DNA from: Acidobacteriota bacterium
Lineage (GTDB): Bacteria; Acidobacteriota; Thermoanaerobaculia; Gp7-AA8
Direction of reading: 5' to 3'
Length of the DNA stretch: 60,093 nucleotides
NCBI GenBank assembly: GCA_039931435.1
Contig: JBDTRY010000003.1
Span: forward strand, 1 to 60,093
Part shown: positions 4,196-23,827 of the stretch, piece after piece
How positions within the stretch are numbered: position 1 is the stretch's first letter
Layout: every line of letters starts with the position of its first letter
Made by a program: the position numbers and the translations under genes
The notes under the pieces: model-generated
Seen by the model: only the letters and a program-made list of their open reading frames with translations
Database searches by the model: none
Told to the model about the DNA's origin: nothing

Positions 4196-4516
4196 ATGAG
4201 AATACGCTTTGTGTCCCTGGCAGCACTGACTTTCGTGATGACATTGCCGGCAATCGCCGCAGGCCCGGACGGGGCCGCACTCTTCAAGAAGTCGTGCGTA
4301 AGCTGCCATGGCGCCGACGGCGCCGGACAGACTACGATCGGCAAAAAGCTGAAGATGCGCGATCTTCGCTCGCCCGAAGTCCGGAAACAGACCGACATCG
4401 AGCTGATGAAGATCATCGCCGGAGGGAAGGAAAAAATGCCGGCGTACGGGCAGAAGATGTCGACGCCCGAGATCCAGGCGGTGATCGCTTACATTCGCAC
4501 ACTCAAAAGCGACTGA
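4196..4516 (+). CDS. Monoheme class I cytochrome c (periplasmic)
   Basis: Signal peptide, CVSCH, distal Met in KMPAY, RBS AAGGAG. Confidence 0.92.
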   Translation: MRIRFVSLAALTFVMTLPAIAAGPDGAALFKKSCVSCHGADGAGQTTIGKKLKMRDLRSPEVRKQTDIELMKIIAGGKEKMPAYGQKMSTPEIQAVIAYIRTLKSD

Positions 4517-6535: not shown

Positions 6536-6546
6536 CTCAGCCTCGC

Positions 6547-7557
6547 CTACTTCAGCAGTTGCGGATCGCGGTTGGAGCCGTGGACGGCAACGTGACAGGT
6601 CGTGCAGTTCTGAAAACGCGGGCTGCTGAGGTTATGAAACGACGGCGGTTGGGACCCCAGCGTATCGCCACCGATGGGCGAATGACATTCGATGCAGAGC
6701 TGCGCGACCGTAGCTCGTTTGAGCTGTTTCGGGTTCGAGGAACCGTGCGGCTCATGGCAGGTCATGCAGTCCCCGGCGGCCAGCGCGCCGTGCTGGAAAA
6801 CAAAGGGGCCACGCTTATCGGCATGGCAGGACAGACAGGGCAGCTCACCGGCACGGGTCCTGCGCAGGCTTTCTCTCCCCGGCATTCCGTGCGGCTCGTG
6901 GCACGATGAGCATTCCATTCCGCCCCGCCCGATCCGGTGAGCGAAGGGCTTGTTGCGCATCGAAGCTACCTGGGTCATGTGGCATGTGTCGCAGAGGGCC
7001 ATCTCCCGTTTTACCAGCAGATGCGGCGAGTGCGGGTCCGCAGCGTGAATGGCGTGGCAGGTCAGGCAATTGACCGCCGTTGAATTCGCGTGCACGCCCG
7101 CGTGACGGGAGACCTGGTCGGTGCTGACGTCGTGACAGGACAGGCAGGTTTTGTTCGCGCCCGTCACTCCCACCGGTTTGTAGATCTTGTCCGTTTCGCC
7201 ACCGCTCTCGATATGCGCTTGGCCGTCACCGTGACAGGTCTCACAGACCGCATTGGGAATCTCGCCGTCTTTCACCTTGCCATGACCATGCGGGTTCGAG
7301 CCGAACGTGGCCATGGCGTCATGGCACTGCGTGCAGGCAGGGAGCGCTTCCGCTTCACCAGCAGAAGCCGGCGTCGCTTCGGGAGTCGCCTCCGGCGAAG
7401 CCTCGGGCGAGGGCTGTTCGGCGGGCGCGGCCGTCGTGGTTTGCGGCTGTTCCGTGGGAGTGGGAGCGGGAGTTGTGGATTGCGGACCGCTGGCGCACAG
7501 CCCCGGCACGGCGAGACAGAGCACGAACGCGAGGGGCCCGATCCAACGGTGTCTCAT
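6547..7557 (-). CDS. MtrA/DmsE-family periplasmic decaheme cytochrome c
   Basis: 10 CxxCH counted; KRGPFVFQH and CHxxHGSN motifs. Start reassigned to ATG 7557 (MRHRWIG, RBS AGGAG). Pro/Thr/Glu-rich linker follows the signal peptide. Confidence 0.92.
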   Translation of the reverse strand: MRHRWIGPLAFVLCLAVPGLCASGPQSTTPAPTPTEQPQTTTAAPAEQPSPEASPEATPEATPASAGEAEALPACTQCHDAMATFGSNPHGHGKVKDGEIPNAVCETCHGDGQAHIESGGETDKIYKPVGVTGANKTCLSCHDVSTDQVSRHAGVHANSTAVNCLTCHAIHAADPHSPHLLVKREMALCDTCHMTQVASMRNKPFAHRIGRGGMECSSCHEPHGMPGRESLRRTRAGELPCLSCHADKRGPFVFQHGALAAGDCMTCHEPHGSSNPKQLKRATVAQLCIECHSPIGGDTLGSQPPSFHNLSSPRFQNCTTCHVAVHGSNRDPQLLK

Positions 7558-7575
7558 TTTTACTCCTGGACGCTG

Positions 7576-7599
7576 TGGGGGGACCTTGCGGTCCCCCCA
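7576..7599 (-). promoter_or_regulatory. Intra-operon stem-loop between mtrC-like and mtrA-like genes
   Basis: Perfect 10-bp stem TGGGGGGACC/GGTCCCCCCA, GCAA tetraloop on the transcribed strand, no U-tract. Confidence 0.55.
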
Positions 7600-7610
7600 T
7601 GCGCTCGACT

Positions 7611-9752
7611 CTATCGGGCGTGAACGCGCTCCACCGACCAGTCCTTGCCGGTGCCGTGGCAGGTTGCACAGGCTTCGGCGGGAGTGGTGCCTCCGGGGAA
7701 GGTGACCGTATTCAGGAACGCATGTGCGGCCGCATCTCTGTTGTCGTGGCAGCCCAGACAGGAAGCTGTGGCCGGACCCTGCGGACTGAAGTAGTCGCGA
7801 AGGGTGGTGACGGATCCGATCCTGGTGGGAAGAGGCAGCGTGTACGAAGTGCCGACGTGGCATTTCGCGCAATTGCGGAGATCACCAGGGAAGCGCACTT
7901 CGTTGAAGTTGTTCCGGCTGCCGCCGAACCCATAAATGGTGAAGTCCTGCGTCAGTTCCTCACCTTTATGAATCTTGTGGATCATCCGGTTGAAGGAGAT
8001 GGACTCGGCCGGTCCCTCCGTCGCCGGCCGCTGGGACTGATCGCCCTCGGTCGGATTGTGGCAGATGACACACTCCTCGGTGTTCATTCGCTGACCACCG
8101 TGAACTGCCAGCCGGTTGTGGCACTGGTTGCACTGTGCTGTCGAGACCACCATGCGGCGTGGGTCCACCGCCCCGGTCACGGCTACGTACTTGATGGGAT
8201 TGAAGGCCGCTTCCCGGACGGCAATGTCGGCCTTGCCGTCGGCGCGTTTCAGCGAGACGTTGCGGTAGATGTCGGCGCTGACCGTCCAGGTTCCACTGGC
8301 GTCGGCCGGTAGCGCATTGTTGAAGGTGTAGGAGGTGGTCCCTGTGGCCGCGTCGAAGACGGCTTTTGCCAGCGCGCTCTCGCGGAAGTACTTCGAGTAG
8401 CTTGAGGTCGGTCCACCAACGATGGGCGCGAACGTGGAGAGCTTCGTGCCATCGACCGCCGTTCCATCACCGTTCGTGATTTTGAACACGACCGTAGGCT
8501 TCTTGCCGGCGGCCATGTCGCTCACGCTGACGATCGTGGCCGAGATTCCCTTGAGCTGTTTCGATTTTTCAGGAATCGTATGCGCACCCTTGATGGAAGC
8601 GTCGAACTCCTGGCCGCTGTCAGGAATGTGGCAGGAGGCGCAGGCGCTGTCGTTCAACTGCGGGCCGCCCGGGTGATTTATCCCGGTGACCCAATCGATG
8701 TCGTCGTGGCACGAGCCGCACGCGGCGCGGCTGGGATAGGTGTACCAGGCGTTCGATTGCGCTCCCTTATTGTTCGGATCCGAGCCTTCGTGGCAGGTCG
8801 CGCAATTACGGATGTCCTGAGGGAAGGCCACGGTCGAGAAATCCACAACCGTCTGATTGAAGCCGATGATCTGGTAGGGAGTGCCGGCGATTACGCTGGG
8901 GAGGTTCTCGCCGCGGTGGATCTTGTGGGCCATGACCTTCATGTCCACTGTGTTGCCCGTATCAGGATCGGTGGTCTGCGGCTGATGGCAAAGCGCGCAC
9001 AACTTCACGTCCTGCCGGGCGCCGCCATGAGCGGAAAGCGGATCGTGGCAGCTGTTGCAGGTCGTGGCGGTGCGCATCTTGTCCCATGTCTCAGTGACCG
9101 GGGTGCCGTCCGGACGGAAGTCATATTCGACGTTGGCGACGTAGCTCTTTTTCAGTTCTTCGTCGATCCCCGGGACTGCGTTGAGCGCGCGTGTGGCGTA
9201 GATGCCGAGCGTATGGGTCTTCGTCACATCGAAGCCCGCGGGGAGTGCCGTTTTGAATGTGTATTTGACGTGCCCGGTCTCCAGGTCCATAAAGGTTCCC
9301 CCCGCGTCTGTGCCGGCCTGCATTGCGGACACGCCGGGATGGGGGCTGGACGGCGGGGTCGTCTGCGTCCGTACGGTGTACGACGTGTATTGCCGCGTCG
9401 CAGGGTCGTACCACGCCAGGATGAAGCTGATGGAGATCGCTCCCGGAGTGATCTTGCCGAGGCGGTCGAGCGGCTGATCGAGGGAATCCGTGATCGTGAG
9501 ATCGACCACCGGTCTGCGGTCGGAGCCGATCACGACGGAATTGACCTTGATCTTCAAACCCGGGCGGATGAATTCAATGGACTCCGGTGACAGGAATGAC
9601 TCGATCTCCGTTGAGGCAAACCCAGTCCTGTTCGGGTCCGACGGAGGCGCAGCCCCACGTCCCCGGCCCGTGGTCTCAGTGGCCAGCAGCGTGCTCGCGA
9701 ACAGCGCGGCCATCGATACCACGAGAACGGCGCGGTTCATCCCTGACTTCAT
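7611..9752 (-). CDS. OmcA/MtrC-family decaheme cytochrome c
   Basis: 10 CxxCH in two blocks of five, each preceded by a heme-free domain; LSAHGG/LAVHGG and MxHKIH motifs; start ATG 9752 after GGAGG. Confidence 0.9.
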   Translation of the reverse strand: MKSGMNRAVLVVSMAALFASTLLATETTGRGRGAAPPSDPNRTGFASTEIESFLSPESIEFIRPGLKIKVNSVVIGSDRRPVVDLTITDSLDQPLDRLGKITPGAISISFILAWYDPATRQYTSYTVRTQTTPPSSPHPGVSAMQAGTDAGGTFMDLETGHVKYTFKTALPAGFDVTKTHTLGIYATRALNAVPGIDEELKKSYVANVEYDFRPDGTPVTETWDKMRTATTCNSCHDPLSAHGGARQDVKLCALCHQPQTTDPDTGNTVDMKVMAHKIHRGENLPSVIAGTPYQIIGFNQTVVDFSTVAFPQDIRNCATCHEGSDPNNKGAQSNAWYTYPSRAACGSCHDDIDWVTGINHPGGPQLNDSACASCHIPDSGQEFDASIKGAHTIPEKSKQLKGISATIVSVSDMAAGKKPTVVFKITNGDGTAVDGTKLSTFAPIVGGPTSSYSKYFRESALAKAVFDAATGTTSYTFNNALPADASGTWTVSADIYRNVSLKRADGKADIAVREAAFNPIKYVAVTGAVDPRRMVVSTAQCNQCHNRLAVHGGQRMNTEECVICHNPTEGDQSQRPATEGPAESISFNRMIHKIHKGEELTQDFTIYGFGGSRNNFNEVRFPGDLRNCAKCHVGTSYTLPLPTRIGSVTTLRDYFSPQGPATASCLGCHDNRDAAAHAFLNTVTFPGGTTPAEACATCHGTGKDWSVERVHAR

Positions 9753-9854
9753 TCGAGCCTCCATAAACGGCCTCTGGCTTCCATTTTCACTTTTGGAGCG
9801 TTTGGAGCGTATTGTATCCGAAGTGGCCCGTCGCTGCCCGCCAACACGCACACA

Positions 9855-9870
9855 TGTGACTGCCGTCACT
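9855..9870. promoter_or_regulatory. CRP/FNR-family-like site upstream of the mtrC-like gene
   Basis: TGTGA-N6-TCACT; TACAAT -10-like hexamer on the minus strand at 9811-9816. Confidence 0.4.
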
Positions 9871-10030
9871 TCAGCAGGTGAGTGACAACAACTCTGGCTC
9901 ACCAGGAATGGCGATATATTAGAAAGCCTGTCTGGCTCGCAGTCGCACGGTTCTTGTTCTCATTTTCTCATTCCCATCCCGGCCGTTTCTGCTCCGCTTT
10001 GTCAAAACGACTAAAGAAAGGCTTTACCTC

Positions 10031-10682: not shown

Positions 10683-12164
10683 ATGAACGACGCCCCACGG
10701 AAACCGAGTCTGTCCCGGAACGTCATCAGTGCCATCGGCGCATTGATCGTGTTCGTCGCTCTGATGAACACGATCTTCCTGATCTATATAGACAGCCGGC
10801 AGACTCATGGAAGCCCGTACCTGGGTATTCTGGCCTGGATCGTCGGTCCCGCCATTCTGTCTTTCGGACTCATTGTCTACATGGCCGGACTGCTGATCGA
10901 GAGACGCCGCCGTCGTATGCGGGCGCCGGATGACATTCCGCAATACCCGGCTATCGACCTGAACGTCCATCGAACACGAATGATCGTGGCCAGTATCTTT
11001 GCCGGCGTCATCCTCTTCGTCACCGCCAGCGTCATCGGCAGTTTTCAGGCCTTTCACTACACCGAATCGGACGAATTCTGCGGAACGGCATGTCATCAGC
11101 CGATGCATCCTGAGAACATCGCTCATCAGATCTCACCACACGCCAGGGTCGCTTGCGTTGCCTGTCACGTGGGAGGGGGAGCGGAGTGGTACGTCCGTTC
11201 AAAAATCAACGGCACCCATCAGCTCATGGGTGTGATCACAGGCAACTACAAACGTCCCATCGCCACGCCGATCAACAATCTCCGGCCGGCGCGGGACACC
11301 TGCGAGCAGTGTCACTGGCCGGAGAAAAACTTCGGAGATCAACTGAAGGTCTTCAGCCACTACCAGTACGACGAGCAGAGCACGCCAACGGAAGTGCGTC
11401 TCCTGATCCACGTTGGAGGCGGTAGCCCCGCCACGGGTGTGGCCCCCGGCATTCACTGGCACATGAATCTCGCAAACAAAATCGACTATGTCGCTGTGGA
11501 TCCTCAGCGTCAGGACATTCCATGGGTTAGGATGACCGACCGCAACGGCAAAGTCACGGATTACGTTCGAGAGGATTCGAAGGTGACGCCGGCGCAGATT
11601 GCAAACGCGCGGCAGATGGACTGTTTGGACTGCCACAGCCGTCCGGCCCATAACTACCTCTCACCAGACCGTGCCGTGGACCGGGCTCTGCTCACGGGAT
11701 CGATCGATCGCTCGCTGCCCTACGTCAAGCAGCAGGCCGTGAACATTCTCTCGAAGAACTATGGATCGACAGCGCAGGCAGTGAAGACCATCGGTAGGGA
11801 CTTCCCCGCCTACTACAGCAAGACCTACCCGGCCGTTTACGCTGCCAGGCGAGCTTCCGTGGACCACTCCATGAAAAGCCTTCAACGGATCTTCCAGTTC
11901 ACACGCTTCCCTGAGATGCGCGTCGACTGGCGGACACACCGGAACAACCTCGGTCACATGTACTCGCTCGGTTGTTTTCGCTGCCACGACGACCAGCACG
12001 TAAGCAAGGACGGCAGGCGAATCAGCAAAGAATGCTCGATCTGCCACGAAGTGCTGAGCGCTCCTGAAGGGAAAACGGCTGAGTTCCAGCATCCCGTGGA
12101 CCTGGGAGACCTCCGCGACATGGTCTGCACCGATTGCCACACCGGCGGAGATATGACCCAGTAG
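10683..12164 (+). CDS. ImcH-like NapC/NirT-family membrane multiheme cytochrome c (putative quinol dehydrogenase)
   Basis: Three N-terminal TM helices, YTESDEFCGTACH (CX3CH) plus six CxxCH = 7 hemes, 493 aa. Confidence 0.82.
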   Translation: MNDAPRKPSLSRNVISAIGALIVFVALMNTIFLIYIDSRQTHGSPYLGILAWIVGPAILSFGLIVYMAGLLIERRRRRMRAPDDIPQYPAIDLNVHRTRMIVASIFAGVILFVTASVIGSFQAFHYTESDEFCGTACHQPMHPENIAHQISPHARVACVACHVGGGAEWYVRSKINGTHQLMGVITGNYKRPIATPINNLRPARDTCEQCHWPEKNFGDQLKVFSHYQYDEQSTPTEVRLLIHVGGGSPATGVAPGIHWHMNLANKIDYVAVDPQRQDIPWVRMTDRNGKVTDYVREDSKVTPAQIANARQMDCLDCHSRPAHNYLSPDRAVDRALLTGSIDRSLPYVKQQAVNILSKNYGSTAQAVKTIGRDFPAYYSKTYPAVYAARRASVDHSMKSLQRIFQFTRFPEMRVDWRTHRNNLGHMYSLGCFRCHDDQHVSKDGRRISKECSICHEVLSAPEGKTAEFQHPVDLGDLRDMVCTDCHTGGDMTQ

Positions 12165-13128: not shown

Positions 13129-13434
13129 TTACTTCTTCAGGCTGCGCACGAAGGCGATGACAGCCTCCATATCCTGGGCGGAAAGTTTGGAGGGTTTCAT
13201 CTTTCCTTTACCTTCGGCGAGGATTTTCGTCATCTCCACGTTGGTGAGATTCTGAACCTCCGGCGTGCCGAGATCCTTCAGCTTGAGATTCTTCCCGATC
13301 GTCGTCTGTCCGCTTCCGTCCGCCCCGTGACAGGCCGCGCATTTCGCCTTGTAAATGGCCGCGCCATCGGCGAATGCGGCCACGGGCAGAGCCAGCGCCA
13401 GCAGCACCGCACAGGTCAAAGTTTTCTTCTTCAT
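13129..13434 (-). CDS. Monoheme class I cytochrome c (paralog of 4196-4516)
   Basis: MKKKTL signal peptide, CAACH, GKGKM; shares CHGADGxGQTTIGK with the first copy; RBS GAGGAG. Confidence 0.92.
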   Translation of the reverse strand: MKKKTLTCAVLLALALPVAAFADGAAIYKAKCAACHGADGSGQTTIGKNLKLKDLGTPEVQNLTNVEMTKILAEGKGKMKPSKLSAQDMEAVIAFVRSLKK

Positions 13435-13518
13435 CAATGACTCCTCTTTCGTTTTATATTCAAACATTCTTGCCCCACACTGTATTTCGTCGGCAGGTGA
13501 TTAAACACGGCAGATTCA

Positions 13519-14165: not shown

Positions 14166-14927
14166 TCACCACGCCACGAGCGCAGGCTGCTGCTGCGAGA
14201 GCCAGTCCTGAAGGCCTTCTTTCGTGTCGACAAGGAGCATGCCGCGCATGCGGTAGTGGCCGAGCCCGCATAGCTGCGCGCAGGCGATCTCCCACTGTTC
14301 GCCGTTGTTGGTGCGCGTTGGCGTGAAGTGAATGGGAATCTCCATGCCTGGAACGGCATCCTGGTTGACGCGCATGACCGGAAGCTTGAAGCTGTGAATG
14401 ACGTCCTTTGACGAGATGTGAATGACCACCGGACGATTCACCTCCAGGTGAAGCTCGTTCAGGGTGTTCAGGTCGTCCGTGGCATGCGGATCCTTCGCAT
14501 CGAGCCCGAGGGGATTATCCACCGAGACGAGGGTCACATCCCGCCTGCCGAAGATGCCGTCGGGACCCGGATAGTGGACATTCCACGCAAACTGCTCGGC
14601 CACGATCTGGATCTCCAGCGGCTTCACATTGCCGGCGAGCGGCTGAGCCCAACGCGTCCATGCGGGGATCGAGTATCCGAACAGGTCAACGAGCTCGACG
14701 GCGAACACCGCGATGATGAGATAGACCGGCCAACGCGAGCGCATTCCCCCGTAACTCACGGGCTGGTGCCCACCGGCGCGAAAACGAATCAGCACGTAGA
14801 TGATGTATGCCGCCCAGAAAACGAACAGAATCACGATCATCCAGTGGATTTCGATCAGCAACTTGTCGATTTCCCATCCGTGGCGGGAGTAGTCGGGCGG
14901 CATGTGTCCGAGCAGAAAGTGTTTCAA
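14166..14927 (-). CDS. coxB: Cytochrome c oxidase subunit II (CuA)
   Basis: Two TM helices, EQFAW, DVIHSF, CAQLCGLGHYRM; probable TTG start overlapping the upstream TGA. Confidence 0.9.
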   Translation of the reverse strand: MKHFLLGHMPPDYSRHGWEIDKLLIEIHWMIVILFVFWAAYIIYVLIRFRAGGHQPVSYGGMRSRWPVYLIIAVFAVELVDLFGYSIPAWTRWAQPLAGNVKPLEIQIVAEQFAWNVHYPGPDGIFGRRDVTLVSVDNPLGLDAKDPHATDDLNTLNELHLEVNRPVVIHISSKDVIHSFKLPVMRVNQDAVPGMEIPIHFTPTRTNNGEQWEIACAQLCGLGHYRMRGMLLVDTKEGLQDWLSQQQPALVAW

Positions 14928-15202
14928 GGCCGACCCCCTTCGATCAACACGAACGGCTCCGGTTTCATGGAGAACTCCCGTGATCGGCGCCAAAAGCTCC
15001 AGAAGAGGGTGGCGAATCCGATCTGGACGAGCCCGACGACAGCCAGGAGAAAGAGAATGGCGTAGTTCATCGACTTCGCCGCCTGGGAGCCGGCGGCCGC
15101 CCCGAAACAGACCGGGCAGGCCATTGCGGCGGGCGCGAACACCAGCAGTGCCACGGCGGCGAGCGCGGCGACGGTCGGGATGCGCAGGGCCGGTCTGGTC
15201 AT
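14924..15202 (-). CDS. Small oxidase-operon membrane protein with CPVC motif
   Basis: Signal peptide, ACPVCFG, one TM helix; coupled to both neighbours by overlaps. Confidence 0.7.
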   Translation of the reverse strand: MTRPALRIPTVAALAAVALLVFAPAAMACPVCFGAAAGSQAAKSMNYAILFLLAVVGLVQIGFATLFWSFWRRSREFSMKPEPFVLIEGGRP

Positions 15203-15396
15203 AGATTCATCAGCTTTCGGAAAACTCGTCCCGCATACGCGACGAGAGCGACCCCACAGAACACGAACATGATCGCCAGAACGAGCGCGCTGCTGTTCCT
15301 GGTGGCGAGAAACTCTCGAAAGCCCCAGACGGCCACGAAGACCGACAAGCCGATCGACACGGTAATGAAGACGATGTGAAAGTGACGAAGCCCCAT
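15199..15396 (-). CDS. Small two-TM oxidase-operon protein
   Basis: MGLRHFHIVFITVS..., two hydrophobic helices, ATGA overlap with the next gene. Confidence 0.7.
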   Translation of the reverse strand: MGLRHFHIVFITVSIGLSVFVAVWGFREFLATRNSSALVLAIMFVFCGVALVAYAGRVFRKLMNL

Positions 15397-15400
15397 GCTG

Positions 15401-15808
15401 TCACCGTCCGATGGCATCGACGAAGCCCTGCCACGGTCCCCAGAGGAGAAAGGAAAAAAAGAAGAGCGTCACGCCGAGAACCGAATAGATCAGTTTCTTC
15501 TCCGAGAGTAGATGCATGAAGAATCCGGCAACCAGAAATCCTTTCGTGCAGGCGATGACCAGGGCGATGGCGATGGCGGTGTGCACCGGCATTTTCAGTC
15601 CGTAGCACGCCCAGACCGTGAGCGCGGTCAGCGCGGCGAGGGCGCCAAAGACGATGAGATAGACGCGCATCTCCCGCCGGATCTCCTCGGGAGTGTGATG
15701 AAGATTCGGGTCGTGCACTCCGCCGTGGGTATGCTGATCTTCAGCGCGGCTCGCCGGCAGCGGCATGCCGTCGGACGGGGCGTTCGGTTGAATCACTTGT
15801 TCGCTCAC
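15401..15808 (-). CDS. Cytochrome c oxidase subunit IV family protein
   Basis: YLIVFGALAALTALTV...KGFLVAGFFMHL; GTG start after AGGAGG. Confidence 0.85.
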   Translation of the reverse strand: MSEQVIQPNAPSDGMPLPASRAEDQHTHGGVHDPNLHHTPEEIRREMRVYLIVFGALAALTALTVWACYGLKMPVHTAIAIALVIACTKGFLVAGFFMHLLSEKKLIYSVLGVTLFFFSFLLWGPWQGFVDAIGR

Positions 15809-15816
15809 CGGTCCTC

Positions 15817-16440
<624 letters not shown>

Positions 16441-18306
16441 TCAGACCTCCTTCTGTGCCACGGTCGTCTTCGGCAACATCCCGCCGCTCAGGGCAGGGGC
16501 CGGACGCAACTCGAGATTCTGGGGAAGATAGTCCGCAGTCTGGTAGTCCGGCGAGTTGTACTCGTAAGGACCGCGGTAGACGATCGGCAGCACCTCGAAA
16601 TTCCCGTGGGCCAGCGGCGGTGAGGTGGCGGCCACCCATTCGAGCGTGGTGGCTTGCCACGGATTGTCGTCGACGTTCTTCTTGTGCCGCGCGGCCTGGG
16701 CCACGTTCCAGACGAAATTCACGATGAACGGAATCTGCGCGGCGAGGAGGCACCAGGCGGAGATAGAGATGAACGGATTCGTCGCTGCGGCCGCCGCCTT
16801 CGCATGCGCGTACTGCAACCCGCCGTCATACATGCGTCGCTGCACCCCGGCCAGACCCTGGAGAAACATCGGAAGGAACACGCCGTTCATGAACAGGAAC
16901 GAGCCCCAGAAGTGCACTTTTCCCAGAGTGTCGTTCAGCTTTCGCCCCGTGACTTTCGGGAACCAGTAGTAGATGCCTGCGAACAAGGCGAAGATCGTCC
17001 CCGGCGCTACGATGTAGTGAAAGTGGGCGATGACGTAGTAGGTGTCGTGCAGATGGAGGTCCGTGGTTGCCAGGCCAAGGGGAAGCCCGGTCAGCCCGCC
17101 GAGCCCGAACATGGGAAGGAAGGCGACGGCAAAATACATCGGGGTCGTCATGCGTATCGAGCCACCCCAGAGAGTGACGAGCAACACCGTCAGGATGATC
17201 ACCGAGGGGATGGAGATGATCATCGTCGTGGTCTGGAAGAAGCCGCTGACCATCGCTCCCATGCCGGTGATGAACATGTGGTGCGCCCAGACCACGAAGG
17301 ACATGAAGCCGATCCAGAGCACCGAGTAGACCAGCCAGCGATATCCCCATATGGGCTTGCGGGTGTTGTTGGCGATGACCTCGGTGATGATTCCGAGCGC
17401 CGGCAGGATCAGGACGTATACCTCGGGATGAGCCAGGAACCAGAACAGGTGCTGCCACAGCAATGGATTTCCACCGCCGGCGACCGCAAGTCTTTCACCG
17501 CTGACAACCAGGTCTGCCGGCAGGTAGAAGCTCGTCCCCGCCACGCGATCCATGAACTGCAGGATGGCGCCCACCTCGAGTGCGGGAAAGGCGAGCAGCA
17601 GCAGGAACGATGTGACGAACTGGGCCCAGACGAAGAACGGCAGGCGCATGAAGGTCAGCCCCTCGGCCCGAAGCTGCACGATCGTAACGATGAAGTTGAT
17701 CGAGCCGAGGAGAGAGGATGTGATCAGGAAAACCATTCCCACGATCCAGAAGGTCTGACCACGGGATGCAATATCCGCGAGCGGAGGATAGGAGGTCCAG
17801 CCTGAAGCGGCGGTTCCCAGCGGAAGGAAAAAGCTCGCCAGCATGATCATGCCGCCGGTGAAGTACGCCCAGTAGCTGGCCATGTTGAGCTTGGGGAATG
17901 CCATGTCCGGCGCGCCGATCTGCAGCGGCACGATGTAGTTTCCAAAGGCGCCGACCGCCAGCGGGACAATGGCCATGAAGACCATGATCGTGCCGTGCAT
18001 CGCGCCCAGCTGGTTGTAGCCCTCGGGAAGCATGATTCCGCCCGGCGCGCGCGACTCACCGAGAATTCTGAACAGACGGAATGCATGTCCGGGCCAGCCG
18101 AGCTGCAGACGCATCAACAGCATCAGGCTGAAGCCGAATAGCAGAAATACGAGCGCCGTCACTCCATACTGAATCCCGATCCACTTGTGATCCGTGGAGA
18201 ATACATAGCGGCGAATCCAGGATAGATGATGCTGCCCTCCGGCTTCGACTGCCGGTGCCCCGCCGCCGGAAGGCGAGAGCGCGGGGTCATGGGGTGTCTC
18301 AGACAT
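16441..18306 (-). CDS. coxA: Heme-copper oxidase subunit I, A family
   Basis: STDHK, HGTIMVF, PDMAFP, HPEVY, WAHH, HDTYYVIAHFHY, RR. Confidence 0.95.
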   Translation of the reverse strand: MSETPHDPALSPSGGGAPAVEAGGQHHLSWIRRYVFSTDHKWIGIQYGVTALVFLLFGFSLMLLMRLQLGWPGHAFRLFRILGESRAPGGIMLPEGYNQLGAMHGTIMVFMAIVPLAVGAFGNYIVPLQIGAPDMAFPKLNMASYWAYFTGGMIMLASFFLPLGTAASGWTSYPPLADIASRGQTFWIVGMVFLITSSLLGSINFIVTIVQLRAEGLTFMRLPFFVWAQFVTSFLLLLAFPALEVGAILQFMDRVAGTSFYLPADLVVSGERLAVAGGGNPLLWQHLFWFLAHPEVYVLILPALGIITEVIANNTRKPIWGYRWLVYSVLWIGFMSFVVWAHHMFITGMGAMVSGFFQTTTMIISIPSVIILTVLLVTLWGGSIRMTTPMYFAVAFLPMFGLGGLTGLPLGLATTDLHLHDTYYVIAHFHYIVAPGTIFALFAGIYYWFPKVTGRKLNDTLGKVHFWGSFLFMNGVFLPMFLQGLAGVQRRMYDGGLQYAHAKAAAAATNPFISISAWCLLAAQIPFIVNFVWNVAQAARHKKNVDDNPWQATTLEWVAATSPPLAHGNFEVLPIVYRGPYEYNSPDYQTADYLPQNLELRPAPALSGGMLPKTTVAQKEV

Positions 18307-18551: not shown

Positions 18552-19250
18552 ATGTTCAAAAAAATAAGTCACGTCCTGGCATTGGCTGTCTGTTTCGTAT
18601 TCACCACTGTCGCGGCTCATGCGGCGACGCTCGTGGCACACGTAGAGTTGAAGAGTCCGGTGCATCCCGCGCACATGATCAACACCGCGGCCGATCCGTA
18701 CTGCAATACGGTTCACAAGACCGACAAGCTCATGACCGAGGACCAGATGGCGAACCCGAACGGAACGATGGGCAATACGTTCGTCTTCATCAGTGAAGGG
18801 GTCACCGGCAACTACGCGCCCCCCAAGACTCCGGTCGTCCTGGACCAGCAGGGATGTCATTACGTCCCGCATGCGTTCGGCGTCATGGCCGGGCAGCCCA
18901 TCGTGATCAAAAACAATGACGCGACTCTGCACAACATCCACCCCCTCCCGAAAGTGAATACGCCGTTCAATATCGGCATGCCGATGAAGGGCATGACCCA
19001 GACCCGCGTGTTCCCCAAGCCGGAAATGCCGTTCCACATCAAGTGCGACGTTCATCCCTGGATGTCGGGGTTCGTCGGCGTGTTCGCCAATCCGTTCTTC
19101 GGTGTGTCGAACGACAAGGGAATCGTGGAAATCGACAATCTCCCTGCCGGGACGTACACGGTGGAATCCTGGCACGAGCGGTTGGGACCGAAGTTTCAGA
19201 AAGTCACCGTCGGAGGTTCTGACCGCAAAGAGGTCACCTTTACGTATTAA
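18552..19250 (+). CDS. Periplasmic cupredoxin-like / carboxypeptidase-regulatory-like protein
   Basis: Signal peptide, DQQGCHYVPH, LHNIH, KCDVHPWM (possible His/Cys/His/Met Cu site), PAGTYTVESWHE. Confidence 0.75.
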   Translation: MFKKISHVLALAVCFVFTTVAAHAATLVAHVELKSPVHPAHMINTAADPYCNTVHKTDKLMTEDQMANPNGTMGNTFVFISEGVTGNYAPPKTPVVLDQQGCHYVPHAFGVMAGQPIVIKNNDATLHNIHPLPKVNTPFNIGMPMKGMTQTRVFPKPEMPFHIKCDVHPWMSGFVGVFANPFFGVSNDKGIVEIDNLPAGTYTVESWHERLGPKFQKVTVGGSDRKEVTFTY

Positions 19251-19341: not shown

Positions 19342-20640
19342 ATGCGTTGCGTTACTCGTCCATGGGCACGGTGTTGGGGCCTTCTGCTCCTGCTGCTGTT
19401 CCTCATTCCCACTCCAGCCTTCTCCATCCCTGCATTCGCACGCAAGTACCAGGTCCGATGCACGGCCTGCCACGAGGCCTGGCCCATGCTGAACGACTTC
19501 GGACGTGCTTTCCGGGACAATGGATACCAGATGATGATGGGCAAGGACGGTCCGACCGCCACTCCGGTGGGCTACTGGCCGGTTGCCTTCCGCCTCGTTC
19601 CGAGCTTCGAGCGGGACACGATCAACCACCAGGAGACCGACCAGGGCGTCAAGACGCTGACCACCAGCAATGGGTTTGGCGTCGGAGCCTTCGACGTCTT
19701 GAGCGCCGGCACGCTCGCTCCGAACATGTCATTCCTCTTCGTACCGGCCTACGAGGGGGGCGAGTGGGAGGTCGAATCCGCGTGGGTGCGCTTCGACAAT
19801 CTCGGGAAATCCTCCTGGCTCAACCTGAAACTGGGGCATCACGAACTGGATCTGCCCCGCTCGGCGCATCGACCCTTGAACCAGACAGGCGCCGGGTTTC
19901 TCGTCTACAGCTACCATCCACCGGGCTCCATCTCGGAATTCGACATGGGGGGCAACCAGGACGGCGTGGAATGGGTAGGCCACGACAAGGGGAGCCTCAA
20001 CCGCGCTGCGGTTTCACTGTTCAGTGTGGACGGATCGCCAGGTTCAAGGAGCGCATTCAACACTCCGGGCGTGTACTTCCACCTCATTCATGAGTTTCTT
20101 CCAAAAAGCCGCGTCGTCTCGGAGGCCAAGATCGGTGCCTTCGGCGCCGACGCCAGTTGGCCTACGACGTTCCTCACCTCGGACGGCGACCCGATCGAGG
20201 GCTCGGGAACTACGTTGAAGCATTCGACTCGGTACGGTCTCGAGGGACATGTTCTGTTCGGGCCGAATGTAACTCCCTTCCATGCCCTCGTGGTCCTTGC
20301 TCATGGGTCGGACAATCGCAATCTCATCGAGGGAGCGACGCGGAATGCCACGTGGGACGGAGGCTTTGTCGAGCTGGCCTGGACGCCCCGGCTGAAGACC
20401 ACGCCATTTTTCCGCTACGACTGGATCTCGAACGGGGACCAGTCAAATTCCGAGTTGGCGAGCAACGCAAACGATCAGACCCAATACACCATCGGCATCC
20501 GCCATACCCTGAACTACTCGACGCGGGCGGAGTATGCGTTGCACGGCGAGTACTCGGCGCTTCGAGCTCGAGGCCTGACGGCGGATGAGCCGACCGTCAC
20601 CTCTACCAGCCTTTTCTTCGGAGTTGATTTCGCTTTCTGA
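19342..20640 (+). CDS. Cyc2-like fused monoheme cytochrome-porin
   Basis: Signal peptide, IPAFARKYQVRCTACHEAWPMLNDFGRAFRDNGY, then a beta-barrel-like region ending in Phe. Confidence 0.8.
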   Translation: MRCVTRPWARCWGLLLLLLFLIPTPAFSIPAFARKYQVRCTACHEAWPMLNDFGRAFRDNGYQMMMGKDGPTATPVGYWPVAFRLVPSFERDTINHQETDQGVKTLTTSNGFGVGAFDVLSAGTLAPNMSFLFVPAYEGGEWEVESAWVRFDNLGKSSWLNLKLGHHELDLPRSAHRPLNQTGAGFLVYSYHPPGSISEFDMGGNQDGVEWVGHDKGSLNRAAVSLFSVDGSPGSRSAFNTPGVYFHLIHEFLPKSRVVSEAKIGAFGADASWPTTFLTSDGDPIEGSGTTLKHSTRYGLEGHVLFGPNVTPFHALVVLAHGSDNRNLIEGATRNATWDGGFVELAWTPRLKTTPFFRYDWISNGDQSNSELASNANDQTQYTIGIRHTLNYSTRAEYALHGEYSALRARGLTADEPTVTSTSLFFGVDFAF

Positions 20641-20650
20641 GGAGGATGCG

Positions 20651-21439
20651 ATGAAGAATTTCAACCGTCGATTGCTCCCCAGCGCACTGGCGTTGTTGCT
20701 TTCGGCAAGTTCGCTCCCAACGGCCGATGCTGTGGCTCCCCCCGGCGACCCGGTCCAGGGGAAAGTCGTCTACGACCGGTATTGCGTCTCCTGTCATGGT
20801 GTCGAGGGAGACGGCCGCGGAGAGGGTGCAGGCTACATCTTTCCCAAGCCACGTGACTTCCGGCAGGGAACTTTCAAGTGGCGCTCAACCCCGTCCGGGG
20901 CGCTTCCATCCGTTGCCGACCTCGACAAAACCATTCGCGACGGCTTGTACGGCACGAACATGCCCACCTGGTATGTTCTTGGCGAACGAAACCGGATGAA
21001 TGTCATCTCCTACATCATGACATTCTCTCCGCGGTGGCAGAGCGAAGAGATTCCTGCGGCGATCACGATCCCGGCGGAGCCGCCCTTGACCAGCGAATCG
21101 GTCGACGCTGGCCGCGCGCTTTTCGAAAAGCTTCAGTGCGCGCAATGCCACGGGGACGCAGGGAAAGGCGATGGGCCATCCTCGCATGAGCAGAGAAACG
21201 ACTGGGGTGATCCGATCACCCCTGCCGACCTCACCGTCGGCCATTTCAAAGGCGGGGGCACGCCGTCCGACATCTACCGCGTCTTCATGACCGGCCTGAA
21301 CGGTGCACCGATGCCGTCCTTCGCCGACTCCATCCAGCCGGCGGAAGCGTGGGACCTCGTTCATTTCATCGAGAGCCTCAGCGCTCACGCGGCACCCAAC
21401 CCGCAGTTCGGTGTCGATGGGGTGCCCATCCACCGCTAG
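20651..21439 (+). CDS. Periplasmic diheme class I cytochrome c
   Basis: RBS GGAGG, signal peptide, CVSCH...PRDF...MP and CAQCH...PADL...MP domains. Confidence 0.9.
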   Translation: MKNFNRRLLPSALALLLSASSLPTADAVAPPGDPVQGKVVYDRYCVSCHGVEGDGRGEGAGYIFPKPRDFRQGTFKWRSTPSGALPSVADLDKTIRDGLYGTNMPTWYVLGERNRMNVISYIMTFSPRWQSEEIPAAITIPAEPPLTSESVDAGRALFEKLQCAQCHGDAGKGDGPSSHEQRNDWGDPITPADLTVGHFKGGGTPSDIYRVFMTGLNGAPMPSFADSIQPAEAWDLVHFIESLSAHAAPNPQFGVDGVPIHR

Positions 21440-21444
21440 AGACC

Positions 21445-21930
21445 TCATGGCGCGCCCTCACTCCCGGTGAGGGCGCGCTCGATCATCCCCATCTCTCGCT
21501 TTCTTCTTTTCTTCACCGCGATCGCGGTGAAGATGCTCTCCACGTCCGACACGATGTGCGTGGAAAGGATTACCAGCCTCCCGTAGCCGACGTCCGAGAG
21601 TATGTTGCGGAAGCGCGTGCGTTCCTCCGGATCCAACCCTGCAGTGGGCTCGTCGACGATCAGGACTTCGGGATCGTTGACACCAGTGCCTGGGCGATGC
21701 CAGGACGCTGCTTCATGCCGCCGAAAAGCCGCGGTGACGCGGTGCGCGACCGTGTGGGGTTCACCAGCTCCAGCAGTGCCATCACCCGCGTGCTCGAGCG
21801 CACGCCCTTCAACGCGGCGAAACAGGTCAGGAACTCGCGGGCTTTCAGGTTGGCGTAGACGCCGAAATCCTGCGGCAGGTAGCCCAGGCGCCGTCGCAGC
21901 CGGTCGCGTTTCGCCAACCGCTGCAATCAG
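21445..21930 (-). pseudogene. Fragmented ABC transporter ATP-binding protein
   Basis: LGYLPQDFGVY, GGMKQR-GIAQAL and LIVDEPTAGLDPEER lie in different frames; Walker A absent. Confidence 0.8.
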
Positions 21931-21931
21931 C

Positions 21932-23827
21932 TCACGCCGACGGTGTTCGAATAGCGGCAGTCCGTGAGCCAATAACATCGAGATCGCGCAGAGCCATTCG
22001 GGGCACCGCCACGCGTAAAGCGTTGAGCACCGCCAGAACGTCGATCACTTCCTGCGCGATCGCGCCTGGCACCGGCGAGAGCCAGCCAGCGGCCGCGGCC
22101 AGCATGCCGATCATGCTCAGGCTCATGCCGCCGATCGCGCTTTGCAGGGCGATGGTGCGCATCCGCCGGCCGATGTGGATCAGCTCATCGACCTCGGCCA
22201 GCGAGGGCTCCAGCACCACCGCGTCGGCGGCTTCCGCGGTGATGTCGTTGGCGTGCCCGAAGGCGACGCTGACCGTGGCCGCCTCCATTGCCGGCGCGTC
22301 GTTGATGCCGTCGCCGAGGAAGAGGGTCGGGGCCTTCGCCGTCTCCTCGCGTACGATGGCCAGCTTTTCTTCGGGGCTCGTTCCGGAACGCACGATCTCA
22401 ATGCCGACCAGCGCCGCGAGATGCTGCACCTCGGCCTCGCGGTCGCCCGACACCAGCATCACGCGGGTGACCTGGTGGCGCGGAACGAGGTGCCCGACGA
22501 ACGACCGGCTTTCATCTCTCGGAACGTCCTGAAACCGCAGCGTGGCCGCGTATTCGCCGTTGCGCAGAATGATGCACTCCATGCCGGGAGCGGCCGGCGG
22601 CAATTGCGCAGATATTGCGGTCAACGCGATCTGTTTCCGGCCGGTGATCTCGATCACGTCCTCGGCGATTCTGCCACGCAATCCGTGGCCCGGCTGTTCG
22701 CTGATCTCAGTGACGGCGATGGGCACGATTCCCTCCGCGCGCGCCGCCTCGAGAATGCTCGTGGCCAGAGGATGCCGCGAGTACTGCTCGAGACTCGATG
22801 CCATCCTTAGCACGCCCTCGCGCGTCAACCCGGAGGCGCAAAGGACGTCCGTCAGCGAAGGTTTTCCGTAGGTCAGAGTCCCGGTCTTGTCGAAGATGAT
22901 CGTACGGCAGCGATCGATCCGTTCCAGCATTGCCGGATTCTTGATGATGATTCCCCGGGCCGCCGCCAGCGAGATCGCGCCGAGGATTGCAACCGGAATT
23001 GCCAGGAGGAGCGGACAGGGCGTAGCGATGACGAGGACGGAAAGGAACCGCCGAGGATCGCTGCTGAGGATCCATGCGGCGGCGGCAACGACCAACGCCA
23101 GCAGCGTGTACCAACCGCCGAGGCGGTCGGCAATCCTCCGAAGCTGCGGCCGTTGCGCCTCCGCCTGCTCCATCACTTGAACGATCTTCGCGTAGCGTGA
23201 GTCGACGGGAAGCGTCGTCACGACGATCGTCATCGCATCAGAACCGTTGATCGCCCCGGACAAGACCGCCGAGCCGGGCGCCTTTCCGATCTGAAACGGC
23301 TCGCCGGTCAGATACGACTCGTCCATTGCTCCGTGACCTTCCACGACCGTTCCGTCCGCCGGACAGGTTTCATGCGGCAGCACGACGAGGCGGTCGTCGA
23401 TCCGGACGTCGCCTGTGGGGACCTCCACAATCCCTGTATCCGTCAACCGGTGCGCCTGGCTTGGCAATCGTTTCGCGAGTGCGGAAAGGACGGCGGACGC
23501 TCTGCGCATGGCGTAAAGCTCGAGCGCCGTTCCACCGGCCATCATCAGCACGATGATCGCGCCGGCCAGATATTCGCCGAGGATGGCCGCAGTGACGATG
23601 CATAGGCCGGCCAGCGCGTCGGCTCCGACCTCGAGTGCGGCCAGCTTCTTCAGCAGATCGAAGAGCAATGGAGTGCCGGCGATGAGCACCCCGATCAGCG
23701 GCCAATCGCTGTGGTGTGCGTGACACAGAAATCGCAGAACGAGATAAGCGGCGATGCCGAGGAGCGAAGCAGATGCGATCCATGTCTCCTTGGATGGCAT
23801 GTTCCTATCGCGCGGCAGCGCACTCAT
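21932..23827 (-). CDS. Heavy-metal P-type ATPase, P1B-5-like
   Basis: TGE, TPCP, DKTGTLT, HP, GDGIND; QSAIGGMSLSMIGM and PVPGAIAQEVIDVLAVLN fit P1B-5 TM motifs; no hemerythrin domain. Confidence 0.88.
   Translation of the reverse strand: MSALPRDRNMPSKETWIASASLLGIAAYLVLRFLCHAHHSDWPLIGVLIAGTPLLFDLLKKLAALEVGADALAGLCIVTAAILGEYLAGAIIVLMMAGGTALELYAMRRASAVLSALAKRLPSQAHRLTDTGIVEVPTGDVRIDDRLVVLPHETCPADGTVVEGHGAMDESYLTGEPFQIGKAPGSAVLSGAINGSDAMTIVVTTLPVDSRYAKIVQVMEQAEAQRPQLRRIADRLGGWYTLLALVVAAAAWILSSDPRRFLSVLVIATPCPLLLAIPVAILGAISLAAARGIIIKNPAMLERIDRCRTIIFDKTGTLTYGKPSLTDVLCASGLTREGVLRMASSLEQYSRHPLATSILEAARAEGIVPIAVTEISEQPGHGLRGRIAEDVIEITGRKQIALTAISAQLPPAAPGMECIILRNGEYAATLRFQDVPRDESRSFVGHLVPRHQVTRVMLVSGDREAEVQHLAALVGIEIVRSGTSPEEKLAIVREETAKAPTLFLGDGINDAPAMEAATVSVAFGHANDITAEAADAVVLEPSLAEVDELIHIGRRMRTIALQSAIGGMSLSMIGMLAAAAGWLSPVPGAIAQEVIDVLAVLNALRVAVPRMALRDLDVIGSRTAAIRTPSA

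What the first reader, a model, noticed from the sequence alone, without database searches (positions are those of the whole stretch)
16441..18306. A-family oxidase with intact D-channel but no K-channel lysine
Seen: D-path residues are present (GNY, PDMAFPKLN, SINF, HPEVY), but helix VIII reads TMIISIPSVIIL where canonical enzymes have TMIIAxPTGxK. Subunit II has CAQLC instead of CxExC, and its second helix lacks the usual E-x-x-W while carrying a mid-helix ExxD. Known: K362 (Rhodobacter numbering) is needed for normal turnover in model A-type oxidases. Inference: a variant proton pathway or altered function.
Basis: partly seen in the sequence, partly recalled or inferred. Interest (0 to 1): 0.72.

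Follow-up and report, generated by a model that had tools for sequence, protein, structure and literature searches.

The report
Cyc2-linked oxidase with sealed K channel
This respiratory oxidase lacks the proton-channel lysine thought essential in its family, has also lost the channel's cytoplasmic entry residues while gaining acidic residues nearer the outer side, and sits beside a Cyc2-like cytochrome-porin gene, so it likely reduces oxygen with electrons from outside the cell and may draw part of its protons from the periplasm instead of the cytoplasm.

Summary
Confirmed, not an error. K362 is Ile in this subunit I and Ile/Val in 120 of 120 top hits (itself included); a contig from another study reads the same codon. 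D-channel, His-Tyr site and haem/CuB ligands are intact. The lysine-less A1 clade spans many phyla, is already catalogued (Degli Esposti 2021), and its subunit II carries a near-invariant buried Glu (E100, where R. sphaeroides has P108); this scan noted that before on three other genomes. New here: this copy belongs to a small subclade that has additionally lost the entry His and Glu, placed Trp and Val at P315/S365, and gained acids nearer the periplasm (D103, E48). In 124 family genomes a Cyc2-like porin-cytochrome occurs only in the three found with this variant, next to it (first readers also noted the cassette). A second, independent lysine-less lineage in other Acidobacteriota sits behind the same cassette in 6 of 7 genomes, with a similar layout. 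Best reading (about 0.4): an O2 reductase whose K-type protons enter from the periplasm, translocating fewer charges for a high-potential donor. No reliable structure or biochemistry; D-channel-only operation is a close rival.

The parts
16441..18306 (-). Haem-copper oxidase subunit I, A1 type, no K362
   Evidence: PF00115; best PDB hits are aa3 oxidases; TIGR02891 571 bits, under its 671 cut-off
17194..17196 (-). I371, position of K362
   Evidence: same codon in run X5
17203..17214 (-). S365 (A356 position) and S368 (T359 position): hydroxyls of the upper K-type path
   Evidence: S365 in 97/97, S368 in 96/97 clade sequences
17185..17187 (-). V374 at S365 position (variant subclade)
   Evidence: V/I in 8 of 120 hits, all among the 9 with W324
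17335..17337 (-). W324 at P315 position, channel mouth (variant subclade)
   Evidence: W in 9 of 120 hits, S/A in 111
17575..17577 (-). E244 in helix V (A247 position), clade-specific, role unexplained
   Evidence: E 89, Q 7, M 1 of 97
15817..16440 (-). Subunit III (short type)
   Evidence: PF00510
15401..15808 (-). Subunit IV (start at GTG 15808 inferred from sequence)
   Evidence: PF03626, TIGR02229 on the part 15404-15739
15199..15417 (-). Small conserved membrane ORF A
   Evidence: no Pfam or NCBIfam hit; same place in related operons
14924..15202 (-). Small conserved ORF B (CPVC motif)
   Evidence: no Pfam or NCBIfam hit; same place in related operons
14166..14927 (-). Subunit II, CuA ligands H200, C238, C242, H246, M249, Q240; no cytochrome c domain; last gene of the operon
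   Evidence: PF00116
14694..14696 (-). Subunit II E100, buried Glu at the P108 position
   Evidence: 82/83 pairs, 120/120 homologues
14685..14687 (-). Subunit II D103 (variant subclade)
   Evidence: D/H/E in 24 of 24 lacking the entry Glu, L/I/V in 96 of 96 keeping it
14715..14735 (-). R87 and I93: lost entry His and Glu (H96, E101 positions)
14844..14852 (-). Subunit II helix I E48 (variant) and H50 (clade-invariant)
   Evidence: D/E48 in 19 of 24 variants, acidic in 0 of 165 entry-acid sequences; H50 in 170/170
18552..19250 (+). Cupredoxin-like protein with a type-1 copper ligand set H127, C165, H168, M171; divergent from subunit I
   Evidence: weak hits to blue copper proteins (E 0.02-0.4); ligand set in 60 of 60 aligned homologues
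19342..20640 (+). Cyc2-like monohaem cytochrome-porin
   Evidence: motif spacing of Keffer et al. met except Ser for the first Ala; AF2 pLDDT 82, barrel, Foldseek hits are porins
20585..21439 (+). Dihaem cytochrome c
   Evidence: two CxxCH, PF00034 twice

Best explanation
This A1-type haem-copper oxidase has no K-channel lysine and no cytoplasmic entry residues, and it likely works as the O2-reducing end of a chain Cyc2-like porin-cytochrome -> copper protein/dihaem cytochrome -> CuA, with its K-type protons likely entering from the periplasm through subunit II acids (E48/H50, D103, E100) to S365/S368 and Y297. Shown: intact D-channel, His-Tyr and metal ligands; K362->I; clade-wide E100 and A356->S; subclade-specific loss of H96/E101 equivalents with P315->W and S365->V; gain of D103/E48; adjacency to the cassette; a second independent lineage with a similar layout behind the same cassette. 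From the literature: the E100 position (bovine P69) touches the haem a3 farnesyl tail with helix VIII, along a cavity that runs from between the subunit II helices to Y288/T359. Inferred: that E100 carries protons in place of the Lys (about 0.6); that in this subclade it is loaded from outside (about 0.4); that this lowers the charges moved per O2 from 8 to about 6-7 and so suits a high-potential donor such as Fe(II); that the donor is Fe(II) at all (about 0.35).
For:: 0/120 and 0/97 with Lys; E295, Y297, T361, S365 in 97/97. E100 in 82/83 and 120/120; 5 of 5 Lys-bearing pairs have Pro there. Register: entry Glu to the aromatic after Q is 42 residues in R. sphaeroides (counted on the alignment), in 4 of 4 A2 sequences and as the commonest value in the main clade; hhalign aligns Glu to Glu. 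PMC5947679 and PMC4256069 give the geometry; all 24 subunits II without entry Glu have D/H/E103, none of the 96 others; 3 of 3 paired variant operons have W324+V374, 0 of 108 entry-acid pairs; the variant is a nested clade (99), so the entry was lost secondarily. Cyc2-like gene in 3 of 124 family genomes, the same three, in three genera; second Lys-less lineage in 7 of 401 phylum genomes, 6 directly behind Cyc2-dihaem-cupredoxin; no entry His/Glu, S365->I/T, mid-helix Glu, helix I Glu at column 52 in all six intact frames read and an acid at column 48 in five; its 23 nearest loci all keep Lys and HGxxxxExxW-type entries. AU tests reject joining it to the variant (p 8e-38) or to the whole clade (p 3e-6). 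Acidithiobacillus rus-operon oxidases also lack K354 and E78 (bioRxiv 2020.03.01.968255). Periplasmic proton uptake has precedent in cNOR and in cbb3 reducing NO (PMC3431322).
Against: No usable structure: the subunit I model failed (pLDDT 46) and no coordinates were available. The variant is one clade, so its covariations are one event; with the second lineage two. D103 with E48/H50 could be a purely structural helix I-II pair; 6 of 24 have His at 103 and 5 of 24 lack an acid at 48; the second lineage has no acid at 103. A 3-residue register shift (E93=W104, E100=I111) is possible against the Lys-bearing acidobacterial sisters and in the pairwise alignment to P. denitrificans. A Glu cannot give the positive charge that K362 is proposed to give during electron transfer (PMC10341450). 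The link to Cyc2 is not exclusive: G422 has the second-lineage oxidase without Cyc2; the cassette precedes a cbb3-like oxidase in G477 and no oxidase within the fetched 20 kb in two loci; entry-less Lys-less oxidases occur with no Cyc2 gene in the fetched stretch (L017, L054, L075, L092). The Cyc2-like protein was not assigned to a cluster, and function outside cluster 1 is uncertain. No haem A or O synthase found in this 82% complete genome. I inspected about 45 of the 100 family genomes with a clade subunit II, the best-scoring first.
Confidence: 0.4

Rival explanations
1. D-channel-only oxidase: the K path is closed at both ends, all chemical and pumped protons use the D-channel, and E100/D103/E48/S365 are structural or tune the Y297 pKa and haem a3 potential.
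For: D-channel invariant in 96-97 of 97; lower K path fully hydrophobic in the variant; Degli Esposti proposed that rus-operon oxidases lack a functional K-channel and keep D.
Against: In model enzymes the D-channel is not connected to the oxidised centre and K362 is required (PMC10341450); a buried Glu kept in 120/120 and independently gained at the same depth in a second lineage is costly for a mere packing role.
Confidence: 0.3
2. Rerouted cytoplasmic path: E100 replaces the Lys but is still loaded from the cytoplasm, through a water or lipid cleft by Y91(II), T308, E309 and T373, so the enzyme stays fully electrogenic. This is the likely state of the main clade, which keeps H87 and the entry Glu.
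For: E309 in 95/97 and T/S373 in 97/97; S328 and T373 enriched in the variant; Y91 invariant in 24 variants.
Against: H87, E93 and the small residues at 324 and 374 are lost together, and the new acids appear above E100, not below it.
Confidence: 0.22
3. Altered substrate: an NO reductase or peroxidase-like enzyme that no longer needs the reductive-phase proton path.
For: Several NORs arose from O2 reductases (PMC11214002).
Against: Y297, H293, H342, H343, E295 invariant; neither NOR motif of PMC3084760 is met; full D-channel kept; relatives carry ctaA/ctaB-like genes right behind the operon (read from ORF translations).
Confidence: 0.05
4. Degenerate or mis-sequenced spare copy.
For: The genome has a second, canonical A2 oxidase.
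Against: All six genes are open; same residues in relatives across genera; same codon in an independent run.
Confidence: 0.01

Closest known systems
Canonical A1 aa3 cytochrome c oxidases (R. sphaeroides 1M56, P. denitrificans 1AR1)
   Same: D-channel, HPEVY, His-Tyr, haem and CuB ligands, CuA ligands, subunits I-IV
   Different: K362->I, A356->S, S365->V, P315->W; subunit II lacks H96/E101, has Glu at P108 and Asp at I111; Gln for the CuA-bridging Glu; new prolines in helices IX and X; subunit II gene last
'KC channel' A1 subclade of Degli Esposti et al. 2021 (Elusimicrobia, Methylacidiphilaceae; PMC8239418 Table S for Fig. S7)
   Same: Elusimicrobia rows read Y, A/S, I, S, C, E at Y280, S291, K354, T351, S357, E292, matching this clade's pattern; assignment is by these columns, the accessions were not aligned
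   Different: The table scores only E78 in subunit II; no mention, in what I read, of the second Glu, the entry-less subclade or a Cyc2 link
Acidithiobacillus rus operon and its aa3 oxidase (PMC13741234; bioRxiv 2020.03.01.968255)
   Same: Cyc2 + dihaem cytochrome + copper protein next to an A-family oxidase that lacks K354 and E78 but keeps the D-channel
   Different: Different oxidase lineage by the published description (not placed in my trees); divergent instead of single operon; no rusticyanin identified; host not known to oxidise Fe(II); no RuBisCO found
[quoted passage not shown]
   Same: Cyc2-like gene with COX genes in soil bacteria; duplicated COX3 as in my second lineage
   Different: The second lineage may be that group (preprint supplement not readable); the window's oxidase is not, by AU test against the second lineage
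cNOR, and cbb3 reducing NO
   Same: Precedent for chemical protons taken from the periplasm (PMC3431322)
   Different: Other families, other routes, NO chemistry; here the O2 site and the D-channel pump are intact

Membership tests
A1-type O2 reductase (Pereira/Sousa) | Six His ligands and helix VI Tyr | tested here: met
   H104, H293, H342, H343, H428, H430, Y297
A1-type O2 reductase (Pereira/Sousa) | D-channel Asp, three Asn, Tyr, Ser, Ser and Glu (PMC3084760 Table 2) | tested here: met
A1-type O2 reductase (Pereira/Sousa) | K-channel Lys354, Thr351, Ser291, Tyr280 | tested here: not met
   Ile, Ser, Thr, Tyr: Lys missing. Filed as a Lys-less variant of A1 descent, not as a canonical member
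A1-type O2 reductase (Pereira/Sousa) | CuA site in subunit II | tested here: met
   H200, C238, C242, H246, M249; Gln at the bridging position
A1-type O2 reductase (Pereira/Sousa) | O2 reduction with four pumped protons | not testable with these tools
   needs purified enzyme
A2-type | Tyr-Ser in place of the D-channel Glu | tested here: not met
   FLAHPEVY; the genome's other oxidase has YSHPAVY
B-type | No D-channel; Thr/Ser/Tyr alternative K path | tested here: not met
   D-channel intact; Ile at the Lys position
cNOR/qNOR | H-x-arom-x-E and H-H-x-arom-arom-x17-E motifs | tested here: not met
   HPEVY and HHMFI
Cyc2 (neighbour gene) | AXPXFAR[QK][TY], CXXCH 5 residues on, PXL 4 residues after | tested here: met
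   spacing exact, first Ala is Ser here; 114 of 120 hits have the spacing, 100 with Ala
Cyc2 (neighbour gene) | C-terminal beta-barrel porin, single haem | tested here: met
   one CxxCH; model pLDDT 82; top Foldseek hits porins, E 1e-12
Cyc2 (neighbour gene) | Cluster 1/2/3 assignment by FeGenie HMMs or reference tree | not tested
Cyc2 (neighbour gene) | Fe(II) oxidase activity | not testable with these tools
   needs assay

The most novel reading that the evidence does not exclude
A-family oxidases recruited to Cyc2-type extracellular-electron chains have repeatedly turned their K-channel round: the cytoplasmic half is sealed and a carboxylate ladder between the two helices of subunit II feeds the active-site tyrosine from the periplasm. 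That gives an A-type pump with deliberately lowered charge stoichiometry, tuned to high-potential donors, evolved at least twice within Acidobacteriota and perhaps explaining the Acidithiobacillus enzyme as well.
Probability: 0.3. Interest if true: 0.88.

Novelty: new variant of a known kind. Interest (0 to 1): 0.66.

Why it matters
Why A-family oxidases need a second proton channel, and what K362 does, is a long-running question studied almost only with inactive mutants. This clade offers natural, conserved replacements in graded form: the main type (Lys lost, entry Glu kept, second Glu added; in 100 of 124 family genomes by subunit II match and in a cultured strain, Rubritalea marina DSM 17716), and this variant (entry also lost). 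One genome (G039) carries both in tandem, the main type behind bc1-like genes and the variant with the Cyc2-like cassette, an internal control. If the periplasmic route is real it would be a new way of trading efficiency for driving force in an A-type oxidase, and would point to lithotrophic or mineral-fed respiration in soil Acidobacteriota.

Tried and rejected
AF2 of subunit I from a 26-row alignment: pLDDT 46, unusable, not searched. No two-subunit model was requested: binding of subunits I and II is not in doubt and a score would not give the geometry. Metagenome scan with the variant alignment returned 1 variant among 80 loci, the same protein as in G058, and no new pair. The first pairing count dropped variant pairs by a de-duplication slip, redone; two 'no entry' pairs there (L026, L080) have E or D in the multiple alignment and are not variants. 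Contig-length coincidences between variant subunits and Cyc2-like proteins (8460, 53487, 16870, 74282, 5594) are suggestive but unverified and are not counted; one such coincidence (17295) pairs a Cyc2-like protein with a main-type subunit I. CxQxC as marker of Lys loss: rejected, the Lys-bearing A2 has it. A shifted Lys on helices VII-VIII: none. No RNA holder listed. Runs X1, X3, X4 do not cover the Lys codon. The divergent intergenic region shows no clear shared motif in three genomes. Pfam and NCBIfam name neither the cupredoxin nor the porin; the Atlas gave unnamed acidobacterial clusters and a weak Porin_O_P lead. Trees were FastTree and quick LG+G4 without the mixture model. Not-in-print claim rests on searches (0 papers) and 100 of an open-access library; the 2020 BBA review by Degli Esposti and bioRxiv supplements (Table S1 of rus-like clusters, Fig. 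S10) were not seen and may cover the second lineage or this cassette.

Full report
Observation. The ORF at 18306-16441 is a 621-residue COX1 whose best solved relatives are aa3 oxidases. On the ungapped alignment to R. sphaeroides, K362 is I371, T359 is S368, S365 is V374, P315 is W324 and A356 is S365, while the D-channel, E286, Y288, the six His ligands and the arginine pair are kept. None of 120 top hits, itself included, has Lys there (I 112, V 8), and none has Lys or Arg between 324 and 384. A contig from another study reads the same codon. Subunit II has CAQLC, no entry Glu and E100/D103.

The wider clade. The operon runs I-III-IV-orfA-orfB-II and recurs in relatives. A genome scan gave 80 loci (best 80 of at least 599) titled Acidobacteriota, Verrucomicrobiota, Marinimicrobia, Omnitrophota, Planctomycetota, Bacteroidota, Elusimicrobia and others, including the isolate Rubritalea marina DSM 17716; a few titles look mislabelled and are not relied on. 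Of 97 clade subunits I, position 371 is I 79, L 15, V 3; E295, Y297, T361 and S365 are invariant. Of 83 operon pairs, 82 have E100 (one is a fragment), 78 keep an acid at the entry position, and 5 of 5 Lys-bearing controls have Pro at 100. A clade subunit II is found in 100 of 124 family genomes, usually beside a canonical enzyme; this genome's is an A2 caa3 on C14. Degli Esposti et al. 2021 list Elusimicrobia A1 enzymes with the same subunit I pattern (PMC8239418; passages, the K-channel table whole, part of Data Sheet 2), so Lys loss in this group is in print. Three earlier notes of this scan reached the E100 reading on other genomes; I had recorded it before the look-up.

Where E100 sits. 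The entry Glu lies 42 residues before the aromatic of the Q-W motif in R. sphaeroides (counted), in four A2 sequences and most often in the main clade, which puts E93 at E101, E100 at P108 and D103 at I111; a 3-residue shift is possible and keeps both on the same face one turn higher. Bovine P69(II), seven residues after E62 (the E62 = E101 equivalence is recalled), contacts the haem a3 farnesyl tail with A313, G317 and V320 of helix VIII (PMC5947679, passage), and a cavity lined by V107(II), I363 and F391 runs from between the subunit II helices along that tail to Y288/T359 (PMC4256069, passages). P315, S365, A356, H96 and E101 outline the K-channel (PMC9687966, passages). Among 135 of 150 distant representatives that could be scored, A356 is Ser/Thr in 37 of 39 with a hydrophobic residue at K362, 1 of 81 with Lys and 2 of 15 with Q/H/E; many of these are kin.

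This copy is a further variant. Among 120 subunit II hits, 24 lack the entry Glu; all 24 have D, H or E at 103 and none of the other 96 does. The 24 have also lost H87 (1 of 24 against 96 of 96) and 19 have D/E at helix I position 48, acidic in 0 of 165 entry-acid sequences from loci. In 113 paired operons, the 3 variant pairs (window, G058, G039) all have W324 and V374, and 0 of 108 entry-acid pairs do. The nine W324 subunits I form one clade nested in the main type. So the cytoplasmic mouth was closed secondarily and acids were added above E100. This is a single evolutionary event.

The neighbours. Divergent from subunit I lie a copper protein with a type-1 ligand set (60 of 60 homologues), a monohaem barrel protein with the Cyc2 motif spacing (10.1101/228056, passages) and a dihaem cytochrome. 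In 124 family genomes the Cyc2-like gene is found only in G000, G039 and G058, three genera, each time beside the variant (the G058 contig ends inside the gene). G039 has the main type behind bc1-like genes and the variant cassette right after it. In 401 phylum genomes 15 have a match. Of the 15 loci fetched from the other 14 genomes, 6 have the three-gene cassette directly before another Lys-less oxidase, 1 before a cbb3-like one, 2 have it with no oxidase in the stretch, and 6 distant ones have no cassette. That second oxidase type is in 7 of 401 genomes, 6 with Cyc2. It lacks the entry His/Glu, has I/T at S365, Thr at A356, a Glu 12 residues before the conserved Trp as here, and acids on helix I; its 23 nearest loci keep Lys and the entry Glu. 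It is sister to those Lys-bearing enzymes (100) and AU tests reject joining it to this clade. The Acidithiobacillus chain Cyc2-Rus-Cyc1-aa3 (PMC13741234, PMC10654088, passages) uses an oxidase without K354 and E78, and rus-like clusters are reported from soil bacteria (bioRxiv 2020.03.01.968255, passages; supplement not readable). Ferrigenium's aa3 also lacks the K-channel, unexplained (10.64898/2026.01.22.701106, passages). First readers had noted this cassette; I saw it before that look-up.

Mechanism. In model enzymes the K-channel delivers chemical protons in the reductive phase and needs K362 (PMC10341450, passages). I infer that E100, with S365 and S368, replaces the Lys as carrier to Y297; in the main type it is fed by H87/E93 from the cytoplasm, in this variant most likely by E48/H50/D103 from the periplasm, with the sealed lower half preventing a leak. 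The D-channel would still pump. One or two chemical protons from outside would cut the charges moved per O2 from 8 to 6-7 (arithmetic on recalled stoichiometry; four pumped protons per PMC11214002, passages), useful when electrons arrive at high potential. cNOR shows that periplasmic uptake is possible in this superfamily (PMC3431322, passages). Against: no structure, only two events in my data, non-exclusive linkage, a possible structural role for the acids, and unknown Cyc2 function. I put this at 0.4, D-channel-only at 0.3, a rerouted cytoplasmic path at 0.22 and NO reduction at 0.05 (NOR motifs of PMC3084760 not met, passages).

Verdict. Real feature; Lys loss known in outline; the sealed-entry subclade, its tie to a Cyc2-like cassette and the parallel second lineage were not found in nine literature searches. 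New variant of a known kind, interest 0.66. Tallies over 124 genomes include unpublished G056, G103, G104, those over 401 include G024, and the 170/165 counts include loci of G056 and G103; the three variant genomes and the second-lineage genomes are not marked unpublished.

Noticed in passing
window 4595-9902 (-) and 10683-12164 (+): MtrC/OmcA decahaem (TIGR03507 over cut-off), with what look like MtrA and MtrB downstream and a NapC/ImcH-like multihaem opposite: a second outer-membrane electron conduit 4 kb from the oxidase operon. It could also feed or drain this chain.
   Followed up: partly
window 17575-17577: Helix V E244 (E 89, Q 7 of 97) lies between the equivalents of L246 and I250, which line O2 channel 1 in R. 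sphaeroides; with invariant Q250, Q46, Q524 it is unexplained and might mark another polar route.
   Followed up: partly
window subunit I residues 398, 409, 435: Three clade-specific prolines in helices IX and X beside haem a3 (96, 97 and 95 of 97).
   Followed up: no
representatives P0121-P0270: Across A-family lineages a hydrophobic residue at K362 goes with Ser/Thr at A356 (37 of 39 against 1 of 81); several such lineages carry an acid in helix VIII itself (e.g. P0133, P0206, P0220, P0238, P0239, P0253).
   Followed up: partly
L017 (G028): A third Lys-less type (Phe at K362, YGHH) whose subunit II has a mid-helix Asp-Met-Asn and no entry Glu, followed by a dihaem cytochrome.
   Followed up: partly
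G000 C54:14-1597 (-): Second cupredoxin-like gene followed by a subunit II with a canonical entry motif that appears frameshifted, at the contig end; its subunit I is not in the assembly.
   Followed up: no
G000 whole genome: No CtaA, CtaB, bd oxidase subunit I or RuBisCO found in the 82% complete assembly, although G039 and G058 have ctaA/ctaB-like genes right behind the variant operon.
   Followed up: partly
L212 (G039): Rieske/cytochrome b/large cytochrome c genes, cupredoxin, main-type subunit I and II without III/IV, then the divergent Cyc2 cassette and the full variant operon: the two subunits I may share III and IV.
   Followed up: partly
Not tested here.
   Followed up: no
window 4196-4516 (+) and 13129-13467 (-): Two small monohaem cytochromes c, 52% identical, flanking the Mtr/ImcH block.
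   Followed up: no
window 21445-23827 (-): Fragmentary ABC ATP-binding ORF and a heavy-metal-type P-ATPase just past the dihaem cytochrome.
   Followed up: no
L041, L051, L061, L075: Record titles such as Bifidobacteriaceae, Enterobacteriaceae or Akkermansia on environmental MAGs that carry this oxidase look like mislabels.
   Followed up: no
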